The translations under genes and the position numbers were made by a program. From Planktothricoides raciborskii GIHE-MW2 (GTDB taxonomy: Bacteria; Cyanobacteriota; Cyanobacteriia; Cyanobacteriales; Laspinemataceae), in contig NZ_CP159837.1 in assembly GCF_040564635.1 (NCBI RefSeq), positions 99,801 through 163,800 of the forward strand: DNA of 64,000 bases. Reading direction: 5' to 3'. The notes beneath the pieces are model-generated. The model ran no database searches. It was not told the origin of the DNA and worked only from the letters and a program-made list of their open reading frames with translations. Of this stretch, positions 6,584-26,020 are shown piece by piece; positions within the stretch are counted from its first letter, which is position 1, and each line of letters opens with the position of its first letter.

Positions 6584-6880
6584 AACTATTGATTAAGTTC
6601 CCTCTTTAAACCAGGTTTCAGCAATAAGTAGGTGAAGATAATTAATTGCACTTTTCGTTCCCCGCCGATAGGCTTTGAATTCCCGCCTGTAGGAAGGAGA
6701 GAGAATAGAGAATAGAGAATAGAGAATAGAGAATTTTCCTCTTTCCTATGCATCCTCTTTCCTATGCATCCTCTTTCCTCTTTCCTATGCATCCTCTTTC
6801 CTATGCATCCTCTTTCCTCTAATGGGGTCTGTGGTGCATTTATTTCTGCCCGTAAACTTATTAGACAATATTATACAATA

Positions 6881-8671: not shown

Positions 8672-9066
8672 TACTCTAGATTACATTGATTTATAGCCAG
8701 CGGAGCCTGCGGATTTATTTGGTGAAATTTTTTGCCCAAAAAAAATCCAAGCCCGCAACTACCACACCGCAGATATGTATTAATCTTCAGTGTTTATGAT
8801 AGTCTATAATCTTAGCATATTTAGTTATGAATCGTTAAGTTTTATAAAATAATTATCAAAAAACTTAAATTATGTTACCTGAGATAAAAGCAAAGCCACT
8901 GAGCAGACTAATTTTGGTAAATGGCCGGCTAATTGGGTGACTATCGCCCTGGCTTTAGAGCCTAAAATTTAAAATTAGACCATAAAAATATAACGGACAA
9001 ATCTCGCCTTTCTCGGAGGGAGAGTCTGGGGAATATCTGGGGTCTGGGGAATATCTGGGGAATAGA

Positions 9067-10479
9067 TTAAACTGCCCGATCGCCCAAAAAAGACTTTAAG
9101 TGCCAAGCTAATTGGTGCAGTTTTTGGATTTGAATCGTTGTTTCAGCGATGCCACAAGCCATAGTCATACCGATTTCCTCTAATTGCTCTTTAGAATCCA
9201 ACAGTTGCTCGCTATTAGCCGCTTGCTGTTGGCTAGACAACGCCAATTGTGAAATCTGAATTTTAATTTGTTCACACAGAATCAACAGGCGATCGCTCAA
9301 TTCACTAGGACTGGTGAATCCATCATGGCTGATTAAATCCGGGCTGATTGGGTATTGATTGTTTCCCCCCCAACTGGGGGCATAAAAAGAGATATTCGAG
9401 GCCAGATTCGCCGATTCACCGACAATTTGATTCAGTGTGCGATCCAGTTTTTGCGCGTAATTGGTTATATTTTTAAGTTCGGTATTTAAAAACAAAAACA
9501 TTCGATAATTTTCTGTATATTTATGGCCAATTTTCAGGCTAATATTAAGGGAAAGTTTTTTGCTGTAATCCACTAGGCGATCGCTAATTTCCCGGAGAGA
9601 TTTAATCTGCTGAAGCTGAGAACGAACTTCGCTCAAATGTATGGAAAGTTCGGCAAAATCTCGATCGATGGATGTGGAATTTTCCCTGGATAACTGGCAA
9701 AATTCACGTAATTCTTGCAGTTGAGGCGTGGTGAGACTCAATATCTGGGCTTGATTTTGGCCACTCTGTTGGTGATCGTTCATTTCTTGGACGATCGCCC
9801 CTGAAGATTTTACTATGGGTTCAAGCAACTGCTTCGCCTTGCCCAAAATGCGATCGGCCATCACCAAACCCAGGGCGATCGCCAACAGGGAAAAAATCAA
9901 AGTCGCCAAAGCCCCCAGGAACACTAACTGCCGCATTGAAGTATTAACTGCTTGGATTTTTAGCGACTCTGCGTGAATTTCGGCCATTCTCACCCGCTCA
10001 ATTTCTGCGGTTAATGCTAACCAAATTTGCCGACTTTCATCCGCACCAATAGCCCGAATCGCCTGGTCAGTTTTTCCGGATGCGATCGAAGCTAAAATAT
10101 ATTGATTTAAATCATTTAATTCTTTAGCCAGGAGCAAAATTTTTTGTCCCGAATTTGCCGATTCGAGCGGCATATCTGTTTTCCGTTGCTCCCAAACAGC
10201 GATCGCATTGTTCAATTGCCGCAAATTGACATCATAAGACTCAAGAAAAACCTGGTCTTTTGTACTAACATAGCCCAAGATAGATTCTTGGAGTTTAATT
10301 TTAGCCTCAGACAGTTGATTTGCCAGTAAGTTTTGGCTAATTTCTGGGGTTTGGTGGGCAAATTTTTGAGCATTCAGGTAAAAGTAAGCAGGGGCGATCG
10401 CTCCAGGAATACTTAAAAACACCAGATAAACTAAATAAGACAAAAAAATGCGGGATTTCAGCGTTAAATTAGCCAACAT
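9067..10479 (-). CDS. Two-TM sensor protein with a CHASE3-like periplasmic region and a coiled-coil cytoplasmic tail; possibly a degenerate MCP
   Basis: TM1 (IFLSYLVYLVFLSIP) is followed by a ~150-aa periplasmic region and TM2 (LVFLGALATLIFSLLAIALGLV), then a long coiled coil. The canonical MCP tip is absent; only a degenerate SLNISLKIG stretch remains. Confidence 0.35.
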   Translation of the reverse strand: MLANLTLKSRIFLSYLVYLVFLSIPGAIAPAYFYLNAQKFAHQTPEISQNLLANQLSEAKIKLQESILGYVSTKDQVFLESYDVNLRQLNNAIAVWEQRKTDMPLESANSGQKILLLAKELNDLNQYILASIASGKTDQAIRAIGADESRQIWLALTAEIERVRMAEIHAESLKIQAVNTSMRQLVFLGALATLIFSLLAIALGLVMADRILGKAKQLLEPIVKSSGAIVQEMNDHQQSGQNQAQILSLTTPQLQELREFCQLSRENSTSIDRDFAELSIHLSEVRSQLQQIKSLREISDRLVDYSKKLSLNISLKIGHKYTENYRMFLFLNTELKNITNYAQKLDRTLNQIVGESANLASNISFYAPSWGGNNQYPISPDLISHDGFTSPSELSDRLLILCEQIKIQISQLALSSQQQAANSEQLLDSKEQLEEIGMTMACGIAETTIQIQKLHQLAWHLKSFLGDRAV

Positions 10480-10936
10480 GATTCTCCTAGAAATGGCACA
10501 TTAGCCCTTGTGAACTGAGTAAGCATTGCCAGTCAATTCCTTTATTCGAGGATAATCCGCCATTATCCGTATTCTGGTCTAGATTTAATTTTGTTGTTGG
10601 TTGTTGGTTGTTGGGTAGGGATTCTTTGTTGGTTGGGGAACGGGGAACAGTTATCGGGGAACGGGGAAAGTGAAAAGTTAAAAGTGAAAAGTGATGCATT
10701 GAAAAGTCGTAGGGGCTTTCTGGCCATATAGCCTGACGGATTATGCTTCGCAAGGACGCCCGTACAAGTGAAAAGTTAAAAGTGAAAATTCGTAGGGGCT
10801 TTCTGGCCATATAGCCTGACGGATTATGCTTCGCAAGGAAGCCCGTACAAAAGAAGTATCACTATTCACTATCTACTATTGACTATTAATTATTAACTAT
10901 TTATTATTTAATATTCGTTATTTACTATTTATTATT

Positions 10937-11139
10937 CACTATTCCCTGTTCCCTGTTCCCTGTTCCCTGTTCCCTATTCCCTGTTCCCTATTCCCTGTTC
11001 CCTATTCCCTGTTCCCTGTTCCCTGTTCCCTATTCCCTGTTCCCTATTCCCTGTTCCCTATTCCCTGTTCCCTGTTCCCTATTCCCTGTTCCCTATTCCC
11101 TGTTCCCTATTCCCTGTTCCCTGTTCCCTATTCCCTGTT
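10937..11139. repeat. Heptanucleotide array (TTCCCTG/TTCCCTA)n of about 28 copies, STRR-like
   Basis: The array is read directly. The complementary heptamer GGGAACR appears about 300 bp upstream at 10620-10650. A ~62-bp direct duplication at 10670-10860 lies between the two. Confidence 0.9.
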
Positions 11140-11240
11140 GTTAGTTGTTGTTTGGGTAGGGATTCTTTGGTTATTTGCTATTTGCTATTTTTTATGGGCG
11201 GTTGGTTATTTGCATTCACCTGGCGATCGGCAATATTTTA

Positions 11241-11297
11241 GGGGCGAAGCATTCGCGCAGATATCTTGTCACTTCAACCCTGATGTCTATGCGCGAA
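11241..11297. other. 17-bp-stem inverted repeat directly downstream of cheB; possible transcript-end hairpin
   Basis: GGGGCGAAGCATTCGCGC ... GCGCGAATGCTTCGCCC. No clear U-run follows. The same GGGCGAAGCATTCG motif recurs at 63186-63455. Confidence 0.4.
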
Positions 11298-11311
11298 TGC
11301 TTCGCCCTTAA

Positions 11312-12358
11312 TTAAAATAAAGCCAGAATCGCGTTGGCCATATTTTCCAGTGTCACCACGCGATCGCTTAACCCAGCTTCCACCACCGACCGAGGCATAC
11401 CATAGACCACACAACTAGATTCTGCTTCAGTAAAAATCATGCCCCCTTGGGATTTAATCCAGGCAGCACCTTGTTTGCCATCATTACCCATTCCGGTCAT
11501 CACAATGCCCAAAACACGGTCGCGATAGACTTCAGCCGCCGATTCAAACATCACATCCACACTAGGACGATGCAAAGTATCAAAAGGACGAGTATCCAAA
11601 TGAGTCATCACCGTATTTGTCACCGGCCTGCGAATAAACGTTAAATGTCGGCCTGCGGGTGCGATCATCACCATTCCAGGTTTCAAATCTTCTCCTTCCA
11701 CCGCCTCAACCACGGTCAGCGCAGAAATGTTATTCAGTCGTTCGGCATAAAGTTTTGTATAACCCACGGGCATATGCAACACAATCGCCACTGGGACGGG
11801 CAAATTCCTAGGCAACTGGGGAATCAAATAGGTGAGGGCTTGTGGACCGCCAGTAGAAATCCCAATTGCAATTAAATCGAGGGATTTAGATGTCATTGTT
11901 TTGACAATGGGCTGCTGAACTTCTGGGAGGAACTTTTTCGCTGGCATCCCCTTGGGATGGACTTTCGCCGCCGCTTTGACTTTCTCGATCAACTCCTCAG
12001 TCAGATCAAATATCTTTTCATTAGCCAGTGCAGTAGGTTTTTGCACAAAATCAACAGCCCCCTCATTCAGAGCCGCTAAAGCCATTTCCCCCGCCTCATC
12101 AGCAATGCTAACAATCACCACCGGAATAGGAAACTTGGACATTTGCGCTTTGAGAAACTGCACCCCATCCATATTGGGCATAATTAAGTCTAATGTAATC
12201 ACATCCGGTTGGAGTTCTTCGACTTTGTTTAACGCTTCTTCTCCATCGGTTGCAGCTCCCACCACTTCAATGAACGGACTGCGTAAGAGCATTTGCTTCA
12301 CGACTTTCCGTACATAAGCTGAATCATCCACCACTAAAACTTTGACCACCCGATCCAT
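11312..12358 (-). CDS. cheB: Chemotaxis response regulator protein-glutamate methylesterase CheB
   Basis: An N-terminal receiver (VLVVDDSAYVRKVVKQML..D..MPNMDG) is joined to a C-terminal CheB methylesterase domain (GISTGGPQAL, GMIFTEAESSCVVYGMP). Confidence 0.9.
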   Translation of the reverse strand: MDRVVKVLVVDDSAYVRKVVKQMLLRSPFIEVVGAATDGEEALNKVEELQPDVITLDLIMPNMDGVQFLKAQMSKFPIPVVIVSIADEAGEMALAALNEGAVDFVQKPTALANEKIFDLTEELIEKVKAAAKVHPKGMPAKKFLPEVQQPIVKTMTSKSLDLIAIGISTGGPQALTYLIPQLPRNLPVPVAIVLHMPVGYTKLYAERLNNISALTVVEAVEGEDLKPGMVMIAPAGRHLTFIRRPVTNTVMTHLDTRPFDTLHRPSVDVMFESAAEVYRDRVLGIVMTGMGNDGKQGAAWIKSQGGMIFTEAESSCVVYGMPRSVVEAGLSDRVVTLENMANAILALF

Positions 12359-12409
12359 AAAAATTACCTATAGAAGAATATATTTTGACTCACCATTAAA
12401 AATCTATGA

Positions 12410-13258
12410 TTATACTTTTTTTTGATACACAAATGCTCCATTAATCTGCTCCAAATCAAAGTCATTCGTTAACCTTAATAAAGATTCGGAAGCACTCACA
12501 AATAAATAACCAGGCACTGGCATCATTTGAGCAAATATCTGCAAGGTTTTTTTGATGGCTTCCTGCGAAAAATAAATAAACACATTGCGGCAAAAAATAA
12601 ACGGCGCTGTGGCCATAGGACGGACATCATGTTCACTCATCAAATTCCTATTAGACCATTGGACTCGTTGATGAATTTCTGGAAGAATTTTCCAGGCGTT
12701 TTGATCCTGCTGCTGAAAATATTTTTTTTGCAAATATAAAGGGAAACTGCGAAAAGAACGTTCTCGGTATAAACCTCGTTTGGCCATTTCAATCGATCTA
12801 GCACTGCCATCACTAGCATAAATCTCGATCGGTAAACCTTGATGAAACCAACCTTTTTCATTCAAAGCCATCGCAATGGTTAACGGTTCTTCTCCCGTGG
12901 CACAGGCCGCACTCCAAATTCTTAAAGGTTCTTGATTTCCCTGGGCAAAATATTGGGGGACTAAGACATCAACCATTGATTTAATTTGATCAAACTCCCG
13001 CCAAAAAAATGTTTCTGGCACGGAAATAATATTCATCAACTGTATCCACTCCTCTTTCGCTCCAGCATCATATTTTAGCAAATAATAGTAGTCCAAAAAC
13101 GAGTCTAATCCCAAGGTGAAAATCCGAGGAGCTAATTTATCTTGTAGTATTTGGCATTGGCTTTGATCGTAATGAACTCCTGTATGTGTTTCAATTAAAT
13201 CTCGTAGTAGTTGAAAAGTTGTCCCGGACAAGTGTAAAGAGTCTGAATTAAATTCCAT
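12410..13258 (-). CDS. cheR: Chemotaxis protein methyltransferase CheR
   Basis: It has the CheR N-terminal domain, TFFWREFDQ, and the SAM-binding motif RIWSAACATGEEPLTIAMAL. Confidence 0.9.
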   Translation of the reverse strand: MEFNSDSLHLSGTTFQLLRDLIETHTGVHYDQSQCQILQDKLAPRIFTLGLDSFLDYYYLLKYDAGAKEEWIQLMNIISVPETFFWREFDQIKSMVDVLVPQYFAQGNQEPLRIWSAACATGEEPLTIAMALNEKGWFHQGLPIEIYASDGSARSIEMAKRGLYRERSFRSFPLYLQKKYFQQQDQNAWKILPEIHQRVQWSNRNLMSEHDVRPMATAPFIFCRNVFIYFSQEAIKKTLQIFAQMMPVPGYLFVSASESLLRLTNDFDLEQINGAFVYQKKV

Positions 13259-13339
13259 ATCAAACTAATCAGTCATCATAAGTGGTTGTTGTTGGCTTAA
13301 CCAGCAAGTTAGCCAAGGAGTCGGAGGGCTTTCGGCGCC

Positions 13340-13432
13340 CGCCATCGGCTTTCGGAGCTTCGGGAGCTTCGGGAGCTTCGGGAGCTTCGGGAGCTTCGGG
13401 TGCTTCGGGAGCTTCGGGAGCGAAAGCCCCTC
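13340..13432. repeat. Nonamer tandem repeat (GCTTCGGGA) x about 10
   Basis: The repeat is read directly. It generates spurious ORFs on both strands. Confidence 0.9.
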
Positions 13433-13516
13433 ATCTTCCCTGCCGACGGCGGTCTCCTCTGCCCCTGATCTCCTCTGCTCCGAAAGCCCCTGAGCCGATC
13501 GCAGGCTGATCGCAGG

Positions 13517-16516
13517 TTAATCCTGGAGCAATTTTTGGGCTGCCCGACGGACTCTGGCATTGGGATCGTTACGAGTCATCATTTGCAGTTTTTCCTCGAT
13601 ACCACGATGACCTAGGTGTGCCAGGGCTCGGATACAGGATAAGCGAACGGAGGCATCGGTATCATCCAAGGCTTGCACTAATAGTCTGGAAGCGAGAGGA
13701 TGTTTAAATCGGGTCAGCACTTCCACCAATCCCGATCGCACCATTGGATCTGGGTGAGTCAACCCTTTAGCCAGCCATTCGATTTGTTCTTCAGTGGTAG
13801 GAGCAGAACCTGATATGCTTTGATGCCGGGGTAGAGCATTGGCGGTGAGGGCGGAAATTGCCGCTTCCCGATATTGTGAATGACATAAAAGCTCAATTAA
13901 AGTGGTTGTGGCTGATGCCGATCTCAATTCACCCAGGGTTTGAATGGCCACATTCACCACTCTGGTTTCACTTTCCTCATTGAGTAATTCTTCGATCGGC
14001 TCAACCACACTCTCGTTGCCACAGGTTCCCAGCATTTCTAAGGCATCAATCCGTCTGGTAGGCAAGGGAGATTTGAGGAGATCTAACAACGGTGTTAAAG
14101 CATCAGCATGACCAATGCTTCCCAAGGCAGCGATCGCCGTCCGCGCCACATCTTCCTCACTATTTCCTGAAGTGGCGAGGGGAGCTAAGGTTTGAACCAA
14201 AGTCGCTTTAATCTGATTCTGAAGCTCTAAAGACTCGGTTTTCTGAGCGAGAGACTTACCAATTTGTCCCAGGGCTTCGATCGCCGCCGCCCGAACATGA
14301 GTAGCGGGATCATTCTGGCTTAAGCGAGACAAAGGATCTAAGGCTTGAATATCCGCGTGCCATCCCAAAGACCGCGCACTATAATATCGTACCCAGGGTT
14401 CGATATCGTTTAAAGCCTGGAGCAGATGGGGGAGGGCTGTCTCTGGGTCTATTTGACCGAAAGCGCGGGCAGCGGAGGCTCGAACATTGGGCTGTTCATT
14501 GTGGATGGCTTCGACTAATGCCGCAATCACCCGATCGCTTTCTAAATAAGGCAGATGTTCGATCGCCGCCCGACGGACGCGATTATTAGGGTCGTGACAT
14601 AACTGCAAAAGCAAATCGACACAATTTGGCCAAGCAAAGTAACCAGCAATTTTCACCGCTGATTCCCGGACTTTGGGGTTTTCATCCTGTAAGCGCTGGA
14701 AAATTTGCCCGGACATATCGGGATGACCGAGAGAATTTAAAGCGGCGATCGCTGCTTGACGGACGCCTGCGTCCCCATTACCCAACAAGGACATCAGGGC
14801 TTCAAACGACCGGCGATCGCCTATTTTGGCCAAAGCCTCAGCCGCAACAATAATTAATTCTGGATCTGTGGGCAAATGAGCCAAACGCTCCAAAATAATC
14901 CACAGCCGTCTTTGCTCTTGTTCAGCCAGGGATAATTCTAATGAGGACTCAGAGGCAAAAGTTGAATCAATAGCACTTTGGGGGGAATCAAGGGGGGGAT
15001 TGATCCGCTGACTGTCAATATCCCCCAACACAACCGTCAGGGCTGGCACGGCCAAGGGATCGCCAATTTGTCCCAAAATCACCACCGCGCAGCGACGAGT
15101 TTCTAACTGCTCGGCGGTCAGTTGTTCAATTAACAGATTGCAGACCCGCGAGCGAATGTCTTTTCCTTGTCGGCCATAGTTAACCAAGGTTTCCATCACC
15201 ATTGAGCGGACGATGGGTTCGCCCAAGAGTTGCGTTAAAGCTTGTTCCACTGCCAGACCGGAACGCCAAGTTAACAGTAGGGTGACAGCGACGAGTTCTT
15301 CCCCCTTCGCTTCCGATAAAGCAGCAATGAGATTAGATTCCCCTTGCTGCTTGATGCCACGATTAGCTAAATCGGCAATATGCTGTCCTTCCCCATAAAC
15401 TTTTTCATATCGTTCATAGAGGGTGGCAATGGCTCGAGAAATGGCGATCGTTGGGCCATCTGGACTATTCAACAACTGGGCTAAAGGCTCGACGACTTGT
15501 TTATCCCCCAGTTTTCCCAAAGCCCCAGCAGCGGGTTCGCACAGCATTTCATCTTCCAGCAGGGGGACGAGGCGATCGGCCCCTAGGGGATCGCCAATCC
15601 GCATCAAAGCTTCCAAAGCCGGAAACGCTAAAAAGAAATCCCGAGATTCGGCAATTTCCGCCAAGGTTTCCACCGCTTCCACCGCCCTTAAGTTCCCCAA
15701 AGCCTCGATCGCGTGGTAGCGGACATTGATATCCTCATCTTTTAAAACTGCAATCAGGGGGGGAATGGCGCGGGGGTCTTTTTGTTCTCCCAACAACAAA
15801 GCGGTATAAATCCGCAGATCCGGATCTTCGCTTTGGGTCAGCCAATCGATCAGCGTCGGCAAAGTATCAATATTACTCAGGGCTAAGACCTGCAAGGCAC
15901 TATTGAGCGCACTTAGATTCGTATGTTCTTCGCGCAAGATGCTCAAGATGCGATTAATGGTGGTTTCTTGCGCTTGCACCACCAAGGTATTCACGGCGGT
16001 CTGACGTACCCGCCAACTTTCATCGCCCATCGCGGATACTAAAGGATTATCCGGTAAATCAGTGCTTTGATTGGCCAAAGCTTGCGCGGCTTGCAGGCGA
16101 ATGGTTTCATCGGGATTGGCCAATTTTTCGGCCATTTCTCGTTCTAGATCCATCAGCGGGGTGACATCCTCGATACTGATAGTTGTGCCGCGAATCCGAT
16201 CGCCTTCTCGCCAGGGGGAAATCGTCACCCGCTGCTGCATTTGTTGAAAATAGGCGGATGACTTGGTGGGGACACAAGGAATTAAGGGCTGATCGAAGTG
16301 AGGGGTGTTGGTTTGAATTTCCCCTTCATCTAACACCCGTTGAAATCGGGCTAACCAGTCCCCTAAATCCATATTGGGCGCGATCACATTCAAGGGTTTG
16401 CCGCACACAGTGGTAGATGACAGCCCGGTAATCTGTTCTAACAGCGGATCCCAAGAAGTCACCGTCAGATTTCTGTCTGTTTTTAGAATATAGATTTGAG
16501 AGTTAAACGAATACAT
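13517..16516 (-). CDS. 999-aa PBS-lyase-type HEAT-repeat protein with a ~130-aa non-HEAT N-terminal domain, in an operon-like arrangement with cheR-cheB
   Basis: HEAT-like units of the E/Z type recur more than 15 times, e.g. D..VR..A..ALG.IGD..A...L..LL.D.D..VR..A. Examples are DPDLRIYTALLLGEQKDPRAIPPLIAVLKDEDINVRYHAIEALGNL and DPMVRSGLVEVL. Confidence 0.8.
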   Translation of the reverse strand: MYSFNSQIYILKTDRNLTVTSWDPLLEQITGLSSTTVCGKPLNVIAPNMDLGDWLARFQRVLDEGEIQTNTPHFDQPLIPCVPTKSSAYFQQMQQRVTISPWREGDRIRGTTISIEDVTPLMDLEREMAEKLANPDETIRLQAAQALANQSTDLPDNPLVSAMGDESWRVRQTAVNTLVVQAQETTINRILSILREEHTNLSALNSALQVLALSNIDTLPTLIDWLTQSEDPDLRIYTALLLGEQKDPRAIPPLIAVLKDEDINVRYHAIEALGNLRAVEAVETLAEIAESRDFFLAFPALEALMRIGDPLGADRLVPLLEDEMLCEPAAGALGKLGDKQVVEPLAQLLNSPDGPTIAISRAIATLYERYEKVYGEGQHIADLANRGIKQQGESNLIAALSEAKGEELVAVTLLLTWRSGLAVEQALTQLLGEPIVRSMVMETLVNYGRQGKDIRSRVCNLLIEQLTAEQLETRRCAVVILGQIGDPLAVPALTVVLGDIDSQRINPPLDSPQSAIDSTFASESSLELSLAEQEQRRLWIILERLAHLPTDPELIIVAAEALAKIGDRRSFEALMSLLGNGDAGVRQAAIAALNSLGHPDMSGQIFQRLQDENPKVRESAVKIAGYFAWPNCVDLLLQLCHDPNNRVRRAAIEHLPYLESDRVIAALVEAIHNEQPNVRASAARAFGQIDPETALPHLLQALNDIEPWVRYYSARSLGWHADIQALDPLSRLSQNDPATHVRAAAIEALGQIGKSLAQKTESLELQNQIKATLVQTLAPLATSGNSEEDVARTAIAALGSIGHADALTPLLDLLKSPLPTRRIDALEMLGTCGNESVVEPIEELLNEESETRVVNVAIQTLGELRSASATTTLIELLCHSQYREAAISALTANALPRHQSISGSAPTTEEQIEWLAKGLTHPDPMVRSGLVEVLTRFKHPLASRLLVQALDDTDASVRLSCIRALAHLGHRGIEEKLQMMTRNDPNARVRRAAQKLLQD

Positions 16517-16621
16517 AAGGCCTAAAAAATCAGAATTAAATTAATTACACTTCATTTTTTCAGATTTCTTTTCAGATTTCTTTTCAGATTTTTTCAGATT
16601 TTTATTTCTTGTTTATTTGTG

Positions 16622-16661
16622 AAACATAGAAATTTTGACCTAGGTCAAAATTTCTATGTTT
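16622..16661. promoter_or_regulatory. 40-bp perfect palindrome in the 0.9-kb intergenic region upstream of the HEAT-cheR-cheB unit
   Basis: AAACATAGAAATTTTGACCTAGGTCAAAATTTCTATGTTT is exactly self-complementary. Confidence 0.4.
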
Positions 16662-17452
16662 TATCCCATTGGGTATTTTTACCCCCATATGTTCAAAATT
16701 TTTCACAAACAACCTGAAAAAATCTAATATTTTTTGACCATTAATTTTCTAACATTAGAAAACCTTGTCTAACATTAGAAAACCTTGTCTAACATTGTCT
16801 ATTTTGATTGGGTGATGTCTTTTATATAAAAATACCAATATGGTTAAATTTTGTGATTGTTGAATCATTGGATTAAATCCATTGCTAAGGGGTGTGGGGT
16901 AATGTCTACCCCAATCATTAATTACAAAGGAGCGATGCCGCGCAGCGGATCCCGAAGCTTGCCCCCGCGAATGCGGGGGGGGAATCGCCCCTTTGCCGAA
17001 AGGTTCAGAAGCCTTAAACTTCCTCCTCAAAAGCCTAAATCGGTAATCAGCGATCGGTGGTTTCCCAGAAGAACCTAATCTGAGATTTTTCCACGATTTT
17101 TCGACTTTGCCATCCAAAAAGATCAAATCCGGTGAATGTGTGACAATAAATTATCCGGTCATCCCTGCCCACGGATCTTGCCGATTAAATATCGGTTGCT
17201 CTTGCGTTCAACCGACTGGCGGTTCTCAGGGGATGTGAGGAAAATCAAAATTATCGCTCGCTATTTCACCGGACTGAACCTGACCAATTGACTTTATTTT
17301 ATCCGATTGTGATATCCGATTGTGAGTCCTCGTGTGAGTCGTCGTGTGAGTCGTCGTGTGAGTCGTCAAACTTAGGTAAATTGCCAGGGTAAGCTCATCA
17401 AGCCTAGTCTCACCTTTGATTCCTGTCTTTGATTCCTGTCAAATATCACCAA

Positions 17453-19558
17453 TCAATCACTTAAGCGATCCATAATCATCGCCAATTGATTCGATCGTTC
17501 TAGCAAAGAAGAGGCGGCTTTTTGGGTCGTTTTCACCCCTTGAGCATTCCGTTCGGCAATGGTGGTGATTTCCTGAATCGCTTCCAGTTGGGCTGCTGCA
17601 AGCTGGGAATGATCCCGATTAGACTTGGTAATCTGACTAATCTGTTTATTCACGTTTTGGGCGGCAATGGTCATGTCCTTAATCGTGCGAGATTGTTCGG
17701 TCATCGCTTTGGACAGTTGCTCCGACTGCTGCCGCATACTTTCCACCGCTTGGGTAATTTGACCTGCGGCAACGGATTGACTACTCATGGACTTGTTCAC
17801 ATTGCCAATCATCCGAGTCAGTCGGTCTACCTCCTGAGAAATTTGTTCGCTGGCGGTGGCTTGTTCTGACAAAGCCCGGGCTGTAGTCGAAGCACTTCGG
17901 CGCATGGATTCCACTGCTTGCATAATTTGCTGCGAACCTTTCACCTGTTCCGCCGCTGCTTTACGGACTTGGGTGGTCAAGGAATTGGTATTTTGTGCCG
18001 CTTTTAAAACATCTCGAGCCGCACGAGCTTGCTCGTTCATCGCCTGGGTCACTTGCTGAGTGATTTTCCGCATTTGCAAGGTGGCGTCCACAATCGTTTG
18101 GGTGGATTTAGCTTGTTCTTTGGTGGCTTGAGCCACTTCTTTAGCTTGAATCACCGTAGTGTCGATCGCCTTTACCACATTTTGACCGGCGATCAGTTGT
18201 TCTTCTGTGGCTCGCATAATTTGTCCGACCACCTGGGTGGTTTCTTGAATCCCATTCAGAATGGTTTTTAACCCTTTAGCTCCTTCTTCCGCTTGAGTCG
18301 AACTCTGTTCTGCCACTCGTACCGCATCCGTGGACGCATTAATCGCTTCTTGAACCACCCCCTGTAACGTTTTAATAATAGAAGCAATCTCCGTAGTTGC
18401 CTGAGCCGCGCGATCTGCTAAATTACGGATTTCTTCCGCCACCACCGCGAACCCTCGTCCCGCCTCCCCAGCCCGGGCTGCTTCAATGGAGGCATTCAGG
18501 GAGAGTAAATTCGTCCGTTCAGAAATCAAATTAATCGTATCCACAATCGAACTAATTTCACTGGTGCGCTTGCCCATATCATTAATCACATCAGCAGATT
18601 GCACCATCGCATCCCGCACCCGGCCCATACCTTGAATCGCTTTTTGGATGGTTTCCCCACCATTTTGGGCATCGCGGGTGACTCTGGTGGTCAATTCCGA
18701 GGCTTGTTTCGTCAGATTATTTACACTGCGGATCGATCGCTCTAATTCTTGGGAACTCACTGCTGCGGTATTGGCTACATCGGTAATGCGTTCCGCATTT
18801 TGGGCTACCCCCTGAACCGATCGCCCCATTTCTTCCATTGACGTGGAGACATCTTGGACACTGGTGGCCAGATTTTCGATCGTCGCCGAGACTTGTTCAA
18901 TGGAAGTCCCCATTTCATTCATGGAGGCGGTAGTTTCTTCTGCGGCTGCGGTGACATCATCGGCATTTTGGGACACACTTTGAATCGAGCGGGTCATTTC
19001 CTCAATGGTCGCCGCAGTTTCATTAATGGAACTAGACAGACTATCCGTATCCCGACTCACACTTTTAATCGATGCGGCAATTTCATTCACTGAGCCACTG
19101 ACTTCATTGGCAGAAGTCGCCATGCTATCAGTATTTTCCGCCACATTTTTAATGGAAATATTGGTTTCTTGAATCGAGCTAGAGACTTGGCGGATCGCCG
19201 CCGTCAACTGTAATGAATTCCCAGAGACTTGCTCGCTGGATGCGGCCATTTCATTGATCGAGGAGACTAATTCTTCACTGGAATTAAACAAAGACTCCGC
19301 TTGTTGAGCGGTTTCTGCCAAGGTGACAGCGATCGACCGAGTTTGACTACGGGTTTCTTCCAGGGATTTCAACTGAGCCGTTGCGCCTTGTTGCACGTCC
19401 TCAGAAATCTGATAAATTTCATTAGCCGACGCCGTGACTTGATTGCCTTGATCCCGGACGCGGGCAATTTCTGCCGCTAACGCAAAATTATTGTCAGCTT
19501 GTTGAGGGGCTGCGGAAGATGAATTTCTATTATATTGGGGTTTAGGTTTGCGAGCCAT
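17453..19558 (-). CDS. Large soluble MCP (PilJ/HmpD-like) with extended repetitive coiled-coil arrays and no obvious TM segment
   Basis: It carries the MCP signature [37 protein letters not shown]. Many ~36-aa degenerate repeats (..[17 protein letters not shown]..) occur. There is no hydrophobic N-terminus. Confidence 0.8.
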
Positions 19559-19575
19559 AAGATAATTCTCCTAAG

Positions 19576-19655
19576 TTTGATTTCAATTACAGATCCAATT
19601 ACAGATCCAATTACAGATCCAATTACAGATCCAATTACAGATCCAATTACAGATG
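19576..19655. repeat. 12-mer tandem repeat (ATCCAATTACAG) x about 7
   Basis: The repeat is read directly and lies between the MCP start and the cheW stop. Confidence 0.9.
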
Positions 19656-19689
19656 AATCACCGAGCGAGATTTCCGGAGGTTTCCGGCG

Positions 19690-20160
19690 TCAAGAGCGAA
19701 CCGTCGGCAAGTCGGTGATTTCATCTGCGATCGTTAAGAGTTGCTCCACATTCAGTAACAGAATGATTCTTTCTCCGAGACGGATAATTCCGGAAATATA
19801 TTTGCTCGAAGCGCCGATCGCGTCTGGTGGGGGTTGAATCGCATTTGTGGGAATAGAAACAAATTCTCTGGCACTATCCGCGATCGCCCCCACAGTGCGG
19901 GTGCCAGTTTGAATCACAATCAGGCGAGTCCGCAGATTATATTCAGCTTTTTTTAAGCCTAACCGAGTGCGTAAATTGATCACCGGAATCACTTGTCCCC
20001 GGGAAAATACCACCCCCTCTACAAAATTTGGCGCATTGGGCACCGGAGTAATCGTTTCAATCATTTCCATTTGCTGGACTAACTTGGCCTGAATCGCATA
20101 ATTTGTCTGAGCAATTTCAAACAAAATAAAAGGCTCTGATGATTGCTGATCTAAATTCAT
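19690..20160 (-). CDS. cheW: CheW coupling protein
   Basis: It is a 156-aa single CheW-like domain (FVEGVVFSRGQVIPVINLRTRLGL). Confidence 0.85.
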   Translation of the reverse strand: MNLDQQSSEPFILFEIAQTNYAIQAKLVQQMEMIETITPVPNAPNFVEGVVFSRGQVIPVINLRTRLGLKKAEYNLRTRLIVIQTGTRTVGAIADSAREFVSIPTNAIQPPPDAIGASSKYISGIIRLGERIILLLNVEQLLTIADEITDLPTVRS

Positions 20161-20364
20161 AATTTATCAGTTATTAAATCTCTCTAGATTTACTAAATGT
20201 GTACTCACACCGGATATTTTTGCTGAATTAATTCTAGGATTGCCTGAAACAGTGAAAATATTCAGTATGGAATCCCTAGTATCCTTAATCTCCCGAATAT
20301 GCCTAGTATTCCTAGTATCCCTGGGGAATATCCCTGGGGAAATATTAGGTTTCCCTAGGAAAAC

Positions 20365-22776
20365 TTAGGTTTGGCTCCATTTTTCACTATCTTTACTTAA
20401 TCTAATTAAGGCCGACACATCCAGAATTAACACCACCCGACCATCCCCTAATTCTGTGGCTCCGGCTAAACCGGGAACTTGAATTAAGGGATCGCTCAGA
20501 GGTTGAACCACGATTTCCCGGCGACCAATAATCCGATCCACAATAATGCCGACAGTATTTAAATCTTTGCCAATAATCACCGCATGGAAACGATCTTGAT
20601 CTATTTGACTTAAGCCAAACAGGTGAGCTAACCGTCGGAGAGGCAAAACATCTTGGCGAAAAGAAAGCAGTTCGGTATAGCGATGCTGGACTTCCGAGAG
20701 TCCTTGATTTCCGCCTAAGCCGGCATTACAAGCAGCATTATGCTCCCAATTGTCCAGGGTGGTAATCTTGTGGGATTCCACTTCAATCACTTCCCGCACG
20801 GAAGACTCCGGCACGGCAAAAGTTTGCCCCCCTACGGAAACAATCAAGGCATCGGCGATCGCCAAGGTTAAAGGCAGTTCAATAGTAAACTTGGTTCCGC
20901 GTCCTGGGGCGGTGGTCAACGACAAAACCCCGCCTAGTTCCTGCACCGTATTTTTGACCACTGCCAAGCCCACCCCTCGACCGCTGGTCAGATCCGCCTG
21001 CTCTTTCGTGGAAAAGCCCGATAAACATAAAATATCCAATAAAGATATCAGGTCAACCTGGGTCTCAGAATCGAGTACGCTCATCTTTCTAGCCCTTTCT
21101 GTCACCTGGTTAACATCCACCCCGCGTCCATCATCTTCAATTTCCAGGATTACCATTTCCCCGGAAGTGGCCGCTCGCAGGGCTAAATTCCCCTGAGCCG
21201 GTTTTCCCGATTGTAATCGGTCTGATTCCGATTCCAGCCCATGACTAATGGCATTGCGGACAATATGTAACAGCGGATCCATCAATCGTTCGACGACATA
21301 CTTATCAATTTCTGTCTCCTCTCCCTTAATCTCCAGGTAAACTTTCTTGTGAGTCTCTCTGGCCACATCTCGCACCACAAACTGCATCCGCGAAAAGATT
21401 TGACCAATCGGCACTAAGCGCACTCGCATCACGCCCTGGCGCAAATCTCGCAATTGTCGCTCTAAAGTTTGGCTGGTTTCGCGAATGGGGCGTAAATGCT
21501 TCGTAGGGACGGTATTGCCCAGGCGAACTAATTGATCTTCCAGGCGAGCTCGACTAATCACCAGTTCTCCCAGCATCCGCATCAGATCGTCAAGTCGGGC
21601 TAAGTCCACCCGCACCACATTGGATGGCATCACGGAGACTCCGGGCGATCGCTTAGAAGGCGTCCCTTCCGGTCGGGGCGTCGGCACTGCTTCGGTAACT
21701 TCTTCTTCCCCGACTTCGGGAGATGTGACTGGCGTTTCTTCGGTAGGTTTTCCGGTCGGTTCTAGGGGTTTTGCTTGCTGAGTCATTGGTGCCTGAGTCA
21801 TCGGTGGGGGAGCCTGGGTTTCTGCCTCGGTGGTGACCGATTCTGTCGCCTCGGCGGGGGCGATCGCTTCCGGCTCAGGAGGGTAAAAGCGACGATAGCC
21901 GATCCCATCCTGTTCTGGATGGGGAAACAAGTTTTCATCGGCGCTGGTGGTAGCGACCACAAAATCAAACAGAGTTTTCCCCCCTGGCGCCAGCCGAGGC
22001 GAGGCATGAATTAAGTCGCCAATTTCTTGCAACCGACTGCGAATATAGTTGACATTAATCCCCCGTTCGGCTCGCTCGCGATCAGGGAAAAACTCAATAT
22101 GCCACGCTTGAGCGCCTTTTGTAATCGCCGTTTGTAACCGTTGCAACTCCTCTGGTTTTAATTGAACCGGGGACTCCTCTGGGGCGGGCGGCGGGGATGC
22201 AGGGGGGCTTGCCGTCGGCAGAGGAGCACAGGGGCCTGCCGACGGCAGAGGGGAAATATCTCCTCCGGCTCTCCCGCTCCCTTCCCCGCTCCCCCGCTCC
22301 TGGGCGACCAGGGGTGAATCGCCCCTAAAGCCGTTCCTGGGCAACTGGGCGGCAATTTGTCCCATGATGGCGCTGATATTTGGGGGCTCGGTTTTGGTGC
22401 GACGAGCGGCGATCGTCTCTTCTAACACTTTCACCCCAGCAATCACCGCTTCCATCGCTGACCGAGAAAGACTAACTTGTTCCTCTCGTAAAGCCCGAAG
22501 ACAACTCTCTAGTTGGTGAGCCAAGGCTTCAGCCTCTTTGATGCCCACCATCCCGGACAAACCTTTAAGAGTATGAAAACTCCGCAATAGTTCATCCACT
22601 AAAGACTTCATCTCTAGTTTTATTTCTGAAGTTAATTGTTCATTAATGATGTGATCCAGCAACGATTCTAAGGAAAGTAAATTACTCCGAATACTCGTGA
22701 GGTGGGTGTCACTTTCAGCAAAGTAATCGTCTAAGAATTCATCAAAAAATGGAGATTGTCCTTCATTCTCAGACAT
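20365..22776 (-). CDS. cheA: Chemotaxis histidine kinase CheA (P1-P5, no receiver)
   Basis: The domains are Hpt (SFHTLKGLSGMVG), a Pro-rich linker, a dimerization domain, an HATPase (HIVRNAISHG...GRGVGLAVVKN) and a C-terminal CheW-like domain. Confidence 0.9.
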   Translation of the reverse strand: MSENEGQSPFFDEFLDDYFAESDTHLTSIRSNLLSLESLLDHIINEQLTSEIKLEMKSLVDELLRSFHTLKGLSGMVGIKEAEALAHQLESCLRALREEQVSLSRSAMEAVIAGVKVLEETIAARRTKTEPPNISAIMGQIAAQLPRNGFRGDSPLVAQERGSGEGSGRAGGDISPLPSAGPCAPLPTASPPASPPPAPEESPVQLKPEELQRLQTAITKGAQAWHIEFFPDRERAERGINVNYIRSRLQEIGDLIHASPRLAPGGKTLFDFVVATTSADENLFPHPEQDGIGYRRFYPPEPEAIAPAEATESVTTEAETQAPPPMTQAPMTQQAKPLEPTGKPTEETPVTSPEVGEEEVTEAVPTPRPEGTPSKRSPGVSVMPSNVVRVDLARLDDLMRMLGELVISRARLEDQLVRLGNTVPTKHLRPIRETSQTLERQLRDLRQGVMRVRLVPIGQIFSRMQFVVRDVARETHKKVYLEIKGEETEIDKYVVERLMDPLLHIVRNAISHGLESESDRLQSGKPAQGNLALRAATSGEMVILEIEDDGRGVDVNQVTERARKMSVLDSETQVDLISLLDILCLSGFSTKEQADLTSGRGVGLAVVKNTVQELGGVLSLTTAPGRGTKFTIELPLTLAIADALIVSVGGQTFAVPESSVREVIEVESHKITTLDNWEHNAACNAGLGGNQGLSEVQHRYTELLSFRQDVLPLRRLAHLFGLSQIDQDRFHAVIIGKDLNTVGIIVDRIIGRREIVVQPLSDPLIQVPGLAGATELGDGRVVLILDVSALIRLSKDSEKWSQT

Positions 22777-22777
22777 C

Positions 22778-23155
22778 TTATCCCTCTTGATAATTCAACA
22801 AAACGTTGGCTTGTGCCGATAGCACTTGCGGTTCAAATGGTTTAGTGATATATCTTGAAGCTCCAGCCGCTAAAGCGGCGACACAACTGGCGTCGTCGTT
22901 GCGGGTTGTTAAAACAATTACCGGGATTTCTCGGTAGCTTTCGTGGTTCCGCACAAATTTAAGGACTTCTAAACCATGCATATCCGGCATATTTAAGTCT
23001 AATACCATTAAATCAACCGGACCAAAGACTAAACGCTCGATCGCTTCCAGGCCACTGCTGGCTTCATCGAACTTAACATTTTCTATTTTTTCTAAGGATT
23101 TTTTGACCATCCGTCGCATGGTAGAAGAATCATCAATTACCAAAATCTTTTTCAT
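22778..23155 (-). CDS. cheY: CheY-like single-domain response regulator
   Basis: MKKILVIDDSSTMRR..DLMVLDLNMPDMHG..ITKPF. The ORF track starts at 23224, but the conserved domain begins at MKKIL. Its stop overlaps the cheA start. Confidence 0.8.
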   Translation of the reverse strand: MKKILVIDDSSTMRRMVKKSLEKIENVKFDEASSGLEAIERLVFGPVDLMVLDLNMPDMHGLEVLKFVRNHESYREIPVIVLTTRNDDASCVAALAAGASRYITKPFEPQVLSAQANVLLNYQEG

Positions 23156-23276
23156 ACAATTTACCTCTAAGGTTGTACAAATAAAATCAAGCTTTATGGG
23201 ACTAAGTTTGGATGGAGTTATCAATGTTACTCCAATTTTAGGTGGCTGGGTTGATGAGTTCCCTGGGCTTGTTTGG

Positions 23277-24346: not shown

Positions 24347-24404
24347 CTGTTTCTGATTAGAGAGCGGTGTAGCGAATTTTTAACGGAGATGATCGCGAAA
24401 TCGT

Positions 24405-25649: not shown

Positions 25650-26020
25650 TGTAACAATTCTGAGTCATTGATTAAACCGGCTTGTAAAAGCTTCTGTTTA
25701 AATATATCATTATTGGAGGTATTTGAAAGCCAGTTATAGTAAAAATTCAGGGGGCGGAAGTTGGCCTGAATTATCCCCCAGTCAAGCCGGTTTTTCTCAA
25801 GACAAATTTGCCCAAAAATTTAACAAAAATTTAACAAAAATTTAACACTTAATCCAAGTATAATCGGCGGGTATATCAAGGATGTAATGGGCGTAAAAAC
25901 CCTAGTTATTCCTCGCCTCTGCCCCCAGCTTAGGGGGCTTTCCCCGATTTTTACCGGACTGAGAGCCTCCTCTCAGCCCAAAGCATCACAAAGCATCAGA
26001 CCATTAGCCGCGAAAAAACC

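What the first reader, a model, noticed from the sequence alone, without database searches (positions are those of the whole stretch)
13517..16516. 999-aa HEAT-repeat (PBS-lyase-like) protein immediately upstream of cheR-cheB: candidate chemosensory output or scaffold
A very large protein made of 15 or more E/Z-type HEAT repeats, with a ~130-aa non-HEAT N-terminal domain, sits immediately upstream of cheR-cheB on the same strand with short gaps, so they are probably co-transcribed. As far as I recall, a HEAT-repeat PBS-lyase homolog (Cpc7) is the output partner of the Myxococcus Che7 pathway. A similar adaptor or output role here would link this Che pathway to a non-motility target. The N-terminal domain (MYSFNSQIYILKTDRNLTVTSWDPLLEQITGLSS...) is unassigned.
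Basis: partly seen in the sequence, partly recalled or inferred. Interest (0 to 1): 0.65.

Follow-up and report, generated by a model that had tools for sequence, protein, structure and literature searches.

The report
PAS–HEAT protein of a Che7-type operon
The 999-residue gene is real: it has a PAS sensor domain fused to about 25 HEAT repeats and holds a fixed position in a seven-gene chemotaxis-like operon found in at least eight bacterial phyla, the same layout as the little-studied Myxococcus Che7 system.

Summary
Window 13517-16516 (minus strand) encodes a 999-aa protein, with cheR and cheB directly downstream on the same strand.

The "unassigned" N-terminus is a PAS domain (residues 6-117). 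A Jα-like helix links it to about 25 HEAT hairpins (51 helices).

The gene is not a chance neighbour:
- In 80 other species loci the order is always CheY-CheA-CheW-soluble MCP-PAS/HEAT-CheR-CheB.
- The MCP lies directly upstream in 70 of 70 testable loci, and CheR directly downstream in 64 of 64.
- The loci span Cyanobacteria, Acidobacteriota, Chloroflexota, Actinomycetota, Desulfobacterota-like lineages, Verrucomicrobiota and others.
- The order matches the Myxococcus xanthus che7 locus tags, where a HEAT protein (Cpc7) is reported to bind CheY7.

It is not a bilin lyase.

Most likely it is the pathway-specific partner of CheY~P, an adaptor or output scaffold whose PAS domain adds a second input. 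A serious rival is that it sits on the receptor side, because the partner MCP has no sensor domain anywhere.

I could not obtain the Cpc7 sequence, so orthology rests on gene position only. Co-transcription in this genome is not shown: the flanking gaps are 936 and 258 nt.

Verdict: new member of a known but barely studied kind, of moderate interest.

The parts
13517..16516 (-). PAS-HEAT protein gene, 999 aa
   Evidence: ORF list and translation. Pfam HEAT_2 E 2.4e-106. 100% identical to a Planktothricoides protein, P0001.
16166..16501 (-). PAS domain (aa 6-117) of a distinct subtype. Invariant residues: T13 D14 W22 G39 G65 C81 P83 M93 Q94 P101 G110 E116 D117 T119.
   Evidence: NCBIfam TIGR00229 sensory_box scores 27.4 bits against a cutoff of 22.9. 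The AlphaFold model has pLDDT 90.4. Top Foldseek PDB matches are short LOV/PAS domains, E about 6e-6, TM about 0.6.
16274..16276 (-). Codon of invariant Cys81, in the conserved LIPCxP motif of the long loop before strand H of the PAS domain
   Evidence: Invariant in 65 of 65 homologues. Codon checked. Replaced by Met in the related PAS domain of the cluster-linked hybrid kinase.
16121..16162 (-). Jα-like linker helix (aa 119-132), following the E-D-V-T motif at the end of the PAS sheet
   Evidence: Models. E116, D117 and T119 are invariant.
13523..16108 (-). HEAT/PBS-type α-solenoid (aa 137-998): 51 helices, about 25 hairpins, conserved along nearly its whole length
   Evidence: Model pLDDT 90.2. 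Conservation profile 0.6-0.8 per 20-aa block. PDB sequence matches to alphaRep and CpcE/F. Fold matches to long scaffolds such as CAND1, karyopherin-β2 and PP2A-A.
14930..15028 (-). Lineage-specific disordered insertion (aa 497-529), absent from most homologues
   Evidence: pLDDT below 50 at 514-523. Alignment occupancy 0.07-0.10. Visible in the alignment.
12410..13258 (-). cheR (282 aa), next gene downstream
   Evidence: Pfam CheR E 2.5e-42. Follows the HEAT gene in 64/64 loci.
11312..12358 (-). cheB (348 aa; REC plus methylesterase)
   Evidence: Pfam CheB_methylest E 1.8e-61. NCBIfam PRK00742 scores 372.7 bits against a cutoff of 293.
17453..19558 (-). Soluble MCP with no sensor domain (701 aa). 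The signalling domain is central and the hairpin tip is near residue 362.
   Evidence: Pfam MCPsignal covers residues 288-466 only. No hydrophobic segment: maximum KD19 0.8. Directly upstream of the HEAT gene in 70/70 loci. Same architecture in 8 loci from 5 phyla.
19690..20160 (-). cheW (156 aa)
   Evidence: Pfam CheW E 3.7e-33.
20365..22776 (-). cheA (803 aa; Hpt, dimerisation, HATPase and CheW domains)
   Evidence: Pfam.
22778..23155 (-). cheY (probable start at MKKILVIDD; the listed ORF runs up to 23224)
   Evidence: Pfam Response_reg E 2.1e-28. Homologues align from 23155.
16517..17452 (-). 936-nt AT-rich, low-complexity spacer between mcp and the HEAT gene, with short tandem repeats and a palindrome near 16625-16660
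   Evidence: Sequence. Not conserved in the 86%-identical relative L003, which carries different simple repeats. No Rfam match. The median gap in other species is 94.5 nt.

Best explanation
The gene encodes the non-canonical core subunit of a Che7-type chemosensory pathway, one with a function other than flagellar motility.

Shown:
- The protein is a PAS domain joined by a Jα-like helix to a solenoid of about 25 HEAT repeats.
- Its gene sits at a fixed position between a soluble MCP that lacks a sensor domain and cheR-cheB. The seven-gene operon (cheY-cheA-cheW-mcp-PAS/HEAT-cheR-cheB) is conserved across many phyla.

Inferred, by analogy with M. xanthus Cpc7 and by elimination (it is the only non-canonical protein in the operon):
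- CheA phosphorylates CheY. CheY~P then binds the HEAT solenoid and changes what the solenoid binds or how it assembles.
- The PAS domain, through the Jα helix, gates the same solenoid in response to a second intracellular cue of unknown ligand. The invariant Cys81 suggests a redox or cofactor cue.
- The protein therefore acts as a signal-integrating adaptor or output scaffold toward a target that is not motility and not yet identified.
For: - Anatomy.
- Synteny: 80 species loci all have the same order and strand. The MCP is upstream in 70/70 and CheR downstream in 64/64. Median intergenic gaps are 94.5 and 60.5 nt, and some genes overlap (L086).
- Conservation: the protein is 38-50% identical across phyla over its full length, comparable to CheA.
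- Match to M. xanthus che7: the gene order equals locus tags MXAN_6965 to 6959. Mcp7 is cytoplasmic with no TM or HAMP, and CheB7 is 348 aa as here.
- Reported function there: Che7 acts through a HEAT-repeat protein that binds CheY7 and affects development and membrane composition rather than swimming.
- Second precedent: a HEAT_PBS protein in the haloarchaeal che region is required downstream of CheY.
- Fold: matches are long protein-binding scaffolds.
- Elimination: in cyanobacterial loci no other candidate output gene is conserved in the operon.
Against: - No interaction data exist for this family outside M. xanthus.
- I could not obtain the Cpc7 sequence. M. xanthus was absent from the best 80 genome loci and from both lists of 120 protein hits. 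Cpc7 is described as having 27 helices, against 51 here, so it may be a shorter and distant relative.
- The MCP has no sensor domain, and PAS is the only recognisable input domain in the operon. This fits an input role just as well.
- A variant locus keeps CheW-MCP-PAS/HEAT without an adjacent CheY-CheA.
- In non-cyanobacterial loci an extra response regulator, a CheX/CheC-like protein and a PAS histidine kinase follow cheB, and these could be the real output.
- In this genome the flanking gaps are long (936 and 258 nt), so co-expression is unproven.
Confidence: 0.5

Rival explanations
1. Receptor-side role. The PAS-HEAT protein is the sensory co-receptor or array scaffold of the soluble MCP. 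Its PAS domain detects the stimulus and the solenoid lies along the unusually long MCP helical bundle, passing the signal to CheA. It is an input rather than an output. The two roles could also coexist.
For: - The cognate MCP is about 700 aa with only a central signalling domain, no TM segment and no sensor domain. This holds in the window and in 8 loci from 5 phyla.
- PAS is the only sensor-type domain in the conserved seven genes.
- The HEAT gene always sits directly after mcp and before the adaptation enzymes, with gaps down to 2 nt in the 80-locus set and a 4-nt overlap in L086.
- A variant locus retains CheW-MCP-PAS/HEAT without an adjacent CheY-CheA.
- The solenoid is conserved along its whole length, as expected for an extended interface.
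Against: - The only experimental data for a HEAT protein at this operon position report binding to CheY7, not to the MCP.
- The haloarchaeal HEAT_PBS protein also acts downstream of CheY.
Confidence: 0.3
2. In the full ancestral system the PAS-HEAT protein regulates the cluster-linked PAS histidine kinase, by PAS-PAS pairing or through a shared ligand. The kinase and the extra response regulator are the true output. In this cyanobacterium those partners are encoded elsewhere or have been lost.
For: - Acidobacterial and soil-metagenome loci carry cheB, then a REC-only response regulator, a CheX/CheC-like protein and a PAS-HisKA-HATPase(-REC) kinase.
- The kinase's PAS domain is homologous to the PAS domain of the window protein. 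A tblastn match gives 28% identity and E 4e-9, with shared FxTD, W, YLLPxxP, MQQ and DVTERI motifs.
Against: - The window and most cyanobacterial loci lack the kinase, and the window also lacks the CheX-like gene.
- This PAS subtype also occurs in unrelated multi-PAS proteins, so sharing it is not specific.
Confidence: 0.12
3. It is a phycobiliprotein lyase or an NblB-like phycobilisome factor that merely lies next to che genes.
For: The repeats are of the PBS-lyase type. The best NCBIfam hits are NblB, CpcE and CpcF, and CpcE/F appear among the PDB sequence matches.
Against: - All three scores are far below the curated cutoffs: 133 against 300, 110 against 330, and 98.5 against 220.
- The protein is three to five times longer than those enzymes.
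- The family is common in non-phototrophs that have no phycobilisomes, such as Blastocatellia, Anaerolineae and Desulfatiglandales.
- The linkage to che genes is invariant.
Confidence: 0.02

Closest known systems
Cpc7 (MXAN_6961) of the Myxococcus xanthus Che7 system
   Same: A HEAT-repeat, PBS-lyase-like protein is encoded inside a che operon. The slot lies between a cytoplasmic MCP with no sensor domain and cheR-cheB, and the operon starts with cheY-cheA-cheW. Cpc7 is reported to bind the single-domain CheY. The pathway is not for flagellar motility.
   Different: Sequence homology was not tested because the Cpc7 sequence was unobtainable. Cpc7 is described as having 27 helices, against 51 here. 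I do not know whether Cpc7 has a PAS domain. From my memory of Darnell et al. 2014, M. xanthus che7 also carries a desaturase gene (des7). No desaturase was seen in the window or in loci L001, L002 and L086. Mcp7 is 821 aa, against about 700 aa here.
OE2401F, the HEAT_PBS protein of the Halobacterium salinarum che/fla region
   Same: A HEAT_PBS-type repeat protein encoded among che genes, which interacts with Che proteins and is required for the pathway's output.
   Different: It consists of HEAT repeats only, with no PAS domain. It is always next to a DUF439/CheF gene and controls the archaellum. None of these partners is present here. Homology beyond the repeat type was not tested.
CpcE/CpcF bilin lyases and NblB
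   Same: Same HEAT_PBS repeat type. These are the best-scoring named families.
   Different: All scores are well below the family cutoffs. These proteins are small (200-280 aa) and have no PAS domain. They are tied to phycobilisomes, whereas this family is widespread in non-phototrophs.
PAS/LOV sensor modules with a Jα helix (for example the short LOV protein PpSB1-LOV)
   Same: Same fold plus a C-terminal helix that relays to an effector. These are the top structural matches. The E-D-V-T motif sits at the end of the last strand.
   Different: There is no GXNCRFLQ flavin-cysteine motif and no conserved His on the Fα helix. The invariant Cys lies in an extended loop before strand H. The ligand is unknown.
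Long eukaryotic HEAT scaffolds (CAND1, karyopherin-β2, PP2A-A, SF3B1)
   Same: Overall architecture of a long, flexible solenoid that binds protein partners.
   Different: Fold-level analogy only, with TM scores of 0.2-0.3 and 12-14% identity. No evolutionary or functional link is implied.

Membership tests
Che7-type chemosensory operon with a Cpc7-like HEAT partner | HEAT-repeat protein encoded inside the che operon, between mcp and cheR | tested here: met
   Window gene order. 70/70 and 64/64 loci. The M. xanthus locus tags leave exactly this slot, MXAN_6961.
Che7-type chemosensory operon with a Cpc7-like HEAT partner | Gene order cheY-cheA-cheW-mcp-X-cheR-cheB on one strand | tested here: met
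   compared with MXAN_6965 to 6959.
Che7-type chemosensory operon with a Cpc7-like HEAT partner | Cytoplasmic MCP without TM, HAMP or a sensor domain, and with a central signalling domain | tested here: met
   Window MCP: MCPsignal at 288-466 of 701 aa, and no hydrophobic segment. Same in 8 other loci. Mcp7: signalling domain at 317-534 of 821 aa, with no TM or HAMP.
Che7-type chemosensory operon with a Cpc7-like HEAT partner | Sequence homology of the HEAT protein to Cpc7 beyond the generic repeats | not testable with these tools
   The Cpc7 sequence was never reached. M. xanthus was absent from the best 80 genome loci, from both hit lists and from the named cluster members. The primary paper is not held.
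Che7-type chemosensory operon with a Cpc7-like HEAT partner | Direct, phosphorylation-dependent binding of CheY to the HEAT protein | not testable with these tools
   This needs an experiment or a complex prediction. It is reported only for M. xanthus.
Che7-type chemosensory operon with a Cpc7-like HEAT partner | Linked fatty-acid desaturase (des7). This is an accessory feature recalled from memory of Darnell et al. 2014. | tested here: not met
   No desaturase among the flanking ORFs of the window or in L001, L002 and L086.
PAS domain | Score above a curated sequence-model cutoff | tested here: met
   TIGR00229 scores 27.4 bits against a cutoff of 22.9. Pfam PAS_4 and PAS are below their cutoffs, with E 0.014 and 0.06.
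PAS domain | Five-stranded antiparallel sheet flanked by helices (PAS fold) | tested here: met
   Model pLDDT 90.4. 142 PDB matches at E ≤ 0.001, and the 50 best listed are all PAS/LOV domains. The G strand is short and irregular and is followed by a long conserved loop.
LOV subclass of PAS | GXNCRFLQ motif with the flavin-adduct cysteine on helix Eα | tested here: not met
   The corresponding region reads GKPLNVIAPNMD (family consensus GxxLxxLxPDLE). The only invariant Cys is C81, in the loop before strand H.
CpcE/CpcF/NblB phycobilisome HEAT proteins | Score at or above the NCBIfam equivalog cutoff | tested here: not met
   133.1 against 300 (NblB), 109.8 against 330 (CpcE) and 98.5 against 220 (CpcF).
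CpcE/CpcF/NblB phycobilisome HEAT proteins | Restricted to organisms with phycobiliproteins | tested here: not met
   Full-length homologues occur in Blastocatellia, Pyrinomonadaceae, Anaerolineae, Actinomycetota, Syntrophorhabdaceae, Desulfatiglandales and Verrucomicrobiota.
Haloarchaeal HEAT_PBS Che protein (OE2401F type) | Adjacent to a DUF439/CheF gene in a che-fla region | tested here: not met
   The Pfam scans of the window ORFs and the Pfam labels on the called genes of L001, L002 and L086 show no DUF439 or fla genes. The family is as described.

The most novel reading that the evidence does not exclude
The PAS-HEAT protein is the actual stimulus-sensing subunit of a widespread and structurally uncharacterised type of cytoplasmic chemoreceptor array. 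A giant soluble MCP with no sensor domain (arms of about 350 residues) is read through a solenoid co-receptor. The co-receptor's PAS domain uses the invariant Cys81 to sense redox state or a cofactor. This would be a split-receptor design not described for any chemosensory class.
Probability: 0.2. Interest if true: 0.75.

Novelty: new member of a known kind. Interest (0 to 1): 0.5.

Why it matters
Chemotaxis-like pathways that control something other than swimming are common, but their outputs are mostly unknown. This one has a fixed extra subunit, a PAS sensor fused to a long HEAT scaffold, and the same seven-gene layout in filamentous cyanobacteria, soil Acidobacteriota, Chloroflexota and others.

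In the paper library I could search, only five papers cite the one experimental study of a system with this layout (M. xanthus Che7).

Recognising the cyanobacterial and acidobacterial clusters as the same system gives three things:
- a testable candidate for the pathway's CheY target or its sensor;
- specific residues to mutate (Cys81 and the E-D-V-T/Jα junction);
- tractable organisms in which to ask what the pathway controls.

It also corrects the misleading "PBS lyase" reading of such genes in cyanobacterial genomes.

Tried and rejected
**Reaching M. xanthus Cpc7**
- The full-length protein search returned no Myxococcus entry.
- The genome-collection scan with a 12-sequence profile returned none either.
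- A profile built from three Desulfobacterota-type homologues returned none.
- I picked the ten full-length hits with the most high-GC-like amino-acid composition and read their cluster names. They gave Chloroflexia, Longimicrobiaceae or unnamed entries.
- I inspected the contexts of two of those hits for a des7-like desaturase and found none.
- The primary paper (Darnell 2014), Sharma 2018 and Wuichet & Zhulin 2010 are not held.

**Tools and checks that gave nothing**
- The AlphaFold-database fold library was unavailable, so named structural neighbours could not be used.
- Promoter and terminator scans over 10400-17600 found no more sites than shuffled sequence does.
- Rfam found nothing in 9000-27000.
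- The 936-nt spacer is not conserved even in the 86%-identical relative, so it says nothing about a promoter.

**Ideas rejected**
- The Geobacter 'β group' che clusters are not this system, because they have no mcp gene.
- LOV or flavin chemistry is rejected because the motif is absent.
- FixL/DOS-type haem binding is unsupported. No His is conserved on helix Fα, and the consensus HH before the Cys is F-D-Q in the window protein.

I left the third large protein search unused, because it had little chance of surfacing Cpc7.
Full report
**1. The observation**

The minus strand of the window carries a 999-codon ORF at 13517..16516. Its product is identical to a protein annotated in Planktothricoides, a filamentous cyanobacterium (P0001).

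Pfam finds HEAT_2 in 12 stretches (E 2.4e-106), HEAT_PBS (E 5.7e-43) and HEAT_EZ (E 2.8e-22). An AlphaFold2 model built on 65 homologues is confident (mean pLDDT 90.2, pTM 0.73). It shows 51 helices between residues 137 and 998, about 25 two-helix repeats.

Downstream on the same strand lie cheR (12410-13258) and cheB (11312-12358). The gaps are 258 nt and 51 nt.

**2. The N-terminal domain**

Residues 6-127 (of which 6-117 is the fold proper and the rest the linker helix) pass the curated cutoff of NCBIfam TIGR00229, the PAS "sensory box" (27.4 against 22.9 bits). The Pfam PAS models stay below threshold.

A separate model of residues 1-140 is confident (pLDDT 90.4, pTM 0.83). Its PDB neighbours are PAS domains: short LOV proteins, Rv1364c PAS and ThkA PAS (E about 6e-6 to 1e-4, TM about 0.6).

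The order of elements is:
- two strands and four short helices;
- a short G strand;
- a long conserved loop;
- two long strands;
- a helix at 119-132 that runs into the first HEAT repeat.

Across 65 homologues G39, G65, C81, M93, Q94, P101, G110, E116, D117 and T119 are invariant. The E-D-V-T motif at the end of the sheet, followed by a helix, is the usual PAS-to-effector junction.

The domain is not a LOV domain, because the flavin-cysteine motif is absent. No His is conserved on helix Fα, so FixL/DOS-type haem binding is unsupported. The invariant Cys81 sits in an LIPCxP motif in the loop before strand H. What it binds or senses is unknown.

**3. The surroundings in the window**

Reading along the minus strand, the core genes are cheY (22778-23155), cheA, cheW, a 701-aa MCP, the PAS-HEAT gene, cheR and cheB.

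The MCP has no hydrophobic segment and no domain other than a central signalling domain. Its hairpin tip is near residue 362.

More che genes flank this core on the same strand:
- a CheR-TPR fusion;
- a double CheW;
- a split MCP;
- two membrane MCPs;
- a two-TM protein with no Pfam match.

The 936-nt spacer before the HEAT gene is AT-rich and full of short tandem repeats. It has no Rfam match. It is not conserved even in an 86%-identical relative. Promoter-like and terminator-like sites in the region are no more frequent than in shuffled sequence, and none lies in either gap on the coding strand apart from one weak promoter-like match. Co-transcription here is therefore plausible but not shown.

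**4. Related loci**

The family is large. The first protein search gave 1432 hits at E ≤ 1e-10.

A scan of one genome per species found 209 relatives, and I examined the best 80. They come from:
- Oscillatoriales-type cyanobacteria;
- Blastocatellia and Pyrinomonadaceae;
- Anaerolineae;
- an Actinomycetota MAG;
- Syntrophorhabdaceae, Desulfatiglandales and a 'Deltaproteobacteria' MAG;
- Verrucomicrobiota;
- a Clostridia-labelled MAG.

Chloroflexia and Longimicrobiaceae also appear among named cluster members.

Mapping the window's Che proteins onto these loci gives the same order and strand every time: CheY-CheA-CheW-MCP-PAS/HEAT-CheR-CheB. Where the contig is long enough, the MCP is directly upstream in 70 of 70 loci and CheR directly downstream in 64 of 64.

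Median gaps are 94.5 nt (MCP to HEAT) and 60.5 nt (HEAT to CheR). Some are near zero or overlapping.

The HEAT protein is 38-50% identical across phyla over its full length, similar to CheA. Conservation is even along the solenoid, apart from lineage-specific insertions. The cognate MCPs in eight loci from five phyla are all about 700 aa with only the central signalling domain.

**5. Comparison with the known system**

Moine et al. list the M. xanthus che7 genes as follows:

| Protein | Locus tag | Notes |
|---|---|---|
| CheY7 | MXAN_6965 | |
| CheA7 | MXAN_6964 | 683 aa |
| CheW7 | MXAN_6963 | |
| Mcp7 | MXAN_6962 | 821 aa, cytoplasmic, no TM or HAMP, central signalling domain |
| (not listed) | MXAN_6961 | the empty slot |
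| CheR7 | MXAN_6960 | 273 aa |
| CheB7 | MXAN_6959 | 348 aa |

This is the same order as here, with one empty slot exactly where the HEAT gene sits.

Other papers state that Che7 works with a HEAT-repeat protein, Cpc7, which interacts with CheY7. They also state that the system affects aggregation, sporulation and membrane composition.

The recalled parallel is therefore real at the level of the whole operon. I could not obtain the Cpc7 sequence or the primary paper. M. xanthus did not appear in any hit list. Cpc7 is described as having 27 helices, about half the number here. Orthology of the HEAT proteins themselves remains untested, and M. xanthus may carry a shorter, diverged version.

A second precedent is OE2401F, a HEAT_PBS protein in the Halobacterium che region. 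It is needed for motor switching and acts downstream of CheY.

**6. What it is not**

The best named families are NblB, CpcE and CpcF. All three score far below their curated cutoffs. The protein is several times longer than those enzymes, and the family is common in organisms that have no phycobilisomes. A bilin-lyase role can be set aside.

**7. How it most likely works**

The firm facts are:
- a PAS sensor wired through a Jα-like helix to a long protein-binding solenoid;
- an invariant operon position;
- a partner MCP with no sensor domain;
- no other non-canonical gene conserved in the cyanobacterial version of the operon.

From the M. xanthus and haloarchaeal precedents, I think the protein is most likely the pathway-specific partner of CheY~P. 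It would be an adaptor or output scaffold whose binding properties are also gated by the PAS domain. My confidence is about 0.5.

The main rival, at about 0.3, is a receptor-side role as co-receptor or array scaffold. The arguments for it are:
- PAS is the only input-type domain in the seven genes.
- The gene is glued to mcp.
- One variant locus keeps CheW-MCP-PAS/HEAT without an adjacent CheY-CheA.

A third possibility comes from the longer version of the cluster. In Acidobacteriota and in a soil-metagenome contig, cheB is followed by three further genes:
- a REC-only regulator;
- a protein of about 205 aa with sub-threshold CheX/CheC matches and an E-x2-N motif;
- a PAS histidine kinase whose PAS domain is homologous to the one studied here, with Met in place of Cys81.

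PAS-PAS pairing or a shared ligand could link the HEAT protein to that kinase. These models are not mutually exclusive.

**8. The PAS subtype**

A PAS-only profile was searched against 1.84 billion representative proteins. It found 154 proteins at E ≤ 1e-30 and 794 at E ≤ 1e-10. Of the 150 best, the full-length ones mostly carry the domain at the N-terminus of 870-1100-aa proteins; many of the rest are short, apparently partial, proteins. It also occurs in a few giant multi-PAS proteins. The subtype is characteristic of this family but not exclusive to it.

**9. Novelty and verdict**

A HEAT-repeat partner in a Che7-type operon is known from one experimental study, which only five papers in the searchable library cite. 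As far as I could read, four points are new:
- The partner is a PAS-HEAT fusion with an invariant Cys.
- The seven-gene layout is fixed across many phyla, including filamentous cyanobacteria.
- The MCP universally lacks a sensor domain.
- A CheX-like gene and a PAS kinase with a matching PAS domain belong to the extended cluster.

I cannot exclude that the 2014 paper already reported part of the distribution.

I rate this a new member of a known kind, of moderate interest (0.5). The more novel split-receptor reading is not excluded.

Noticed in passing
L001:15245-15862; L002:16004-16633; at least 44 of the fetched loci: A protein of about 205 aa follows cheB, directly in many cyanobacteria and after an extra REC-only regulator in other phyla. 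It has sub-threshold CheX (E 5e-5) and CheC matches and a TEVGNILLNA (E-x2-N) motif, so it is probably a CheY~P phosphatase. The window has no copy.
   Followed up: partly
L001:15902-17626; L086:15533-16744: A PAS histidine kinase closes the extended cluster (a hybrid with a REC domain in L001). In L001 its PAS domain is homologous to the PAS domain of the HEAT protein (28% identity, E 4e-9) but has Met where the HEAT family has the invariant Cys81; the L086 kinase carries a PAS_4 label only and was not compared.
   Followed up: partly
window 17453-19558 (-), and the MCP genes of L001-L082: The operon's MCP is soluble and about 700 aa, with the hairpin tip near the middle. Each arm is therefore about 340-360 residues, which looks longer than the usual chemoreceptor length classes. 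The heptad class was not determined.
   Followed up: partly
window 23277-27796 (-): Extra che genes lie upstream of the seven-gene core on the same strand: a CheR-TPR fusion (26021-27796), a double-CheW protein (24405-25649), and an MCP that seems split over three overlapping ORFs (23277-24346). The split may be a frameshift or a pseudogene.
   Followed up: no
window 4700-10479 (-): Downstream of cheB lie a 470-aa protein with two predicted TM segments and no Pfam match (9067-10479), then two membrane MCPs (6881-8671, and 4700-6583 with a dCache-type sensor).
   Followed up: partly
window 16517-17452: This 936-nt AT-rich spacer holds several short tandem repeats (ACGACTCACACG, ATGTTAGACAAGGTTTTCTA, AAATCTGAAAA) and a near-perfect palindrome at about 16625-16660. 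The closest relative, L003, has a shorter spacer filled with CAACAA-type repeats instead.
   Followed up: partly
P0023, P0042, P0038 and other cyanobacterial homologues of about 1100 aa (alignment A1, columns about 135-355): The longer cyanobacterial forms carry a tandem duplication of the first HEAT block, about 170 aa. The motifs W-x-V-R, HRN..VLNS.LQVL, DLRIY, NVRYHAIEALG and DFFLAFPALDAL all occur twice.
   Followed up: no
L083-L085 (Logan contigs carrying P0178): A variant locus has CheW-MCP-PAS/HEAT preceded by unrelated genes (glyoxalase-like, FAD-binding) with no adjacent CheY-CheA. The contigs end just after the HEAT gene.
   Followed up: no
P0173 (4799 aa), P0282 (3417 aa), P0301, P0303: Giant proteins carry up to 32 tandem copies of this PAS subtype.
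   Followed up: no
window 1243-3564 (-), 31504-33543 (+), 28713-29720 (-), 52674-60374 (-): Other features of the window: a TPR-CHAT protein, a separate TPR gene followed by a CHAT gene, an ORF with an IS605 OrfB-type HTH, and an unexamined 2566-aa ORF.
   Followed up: no
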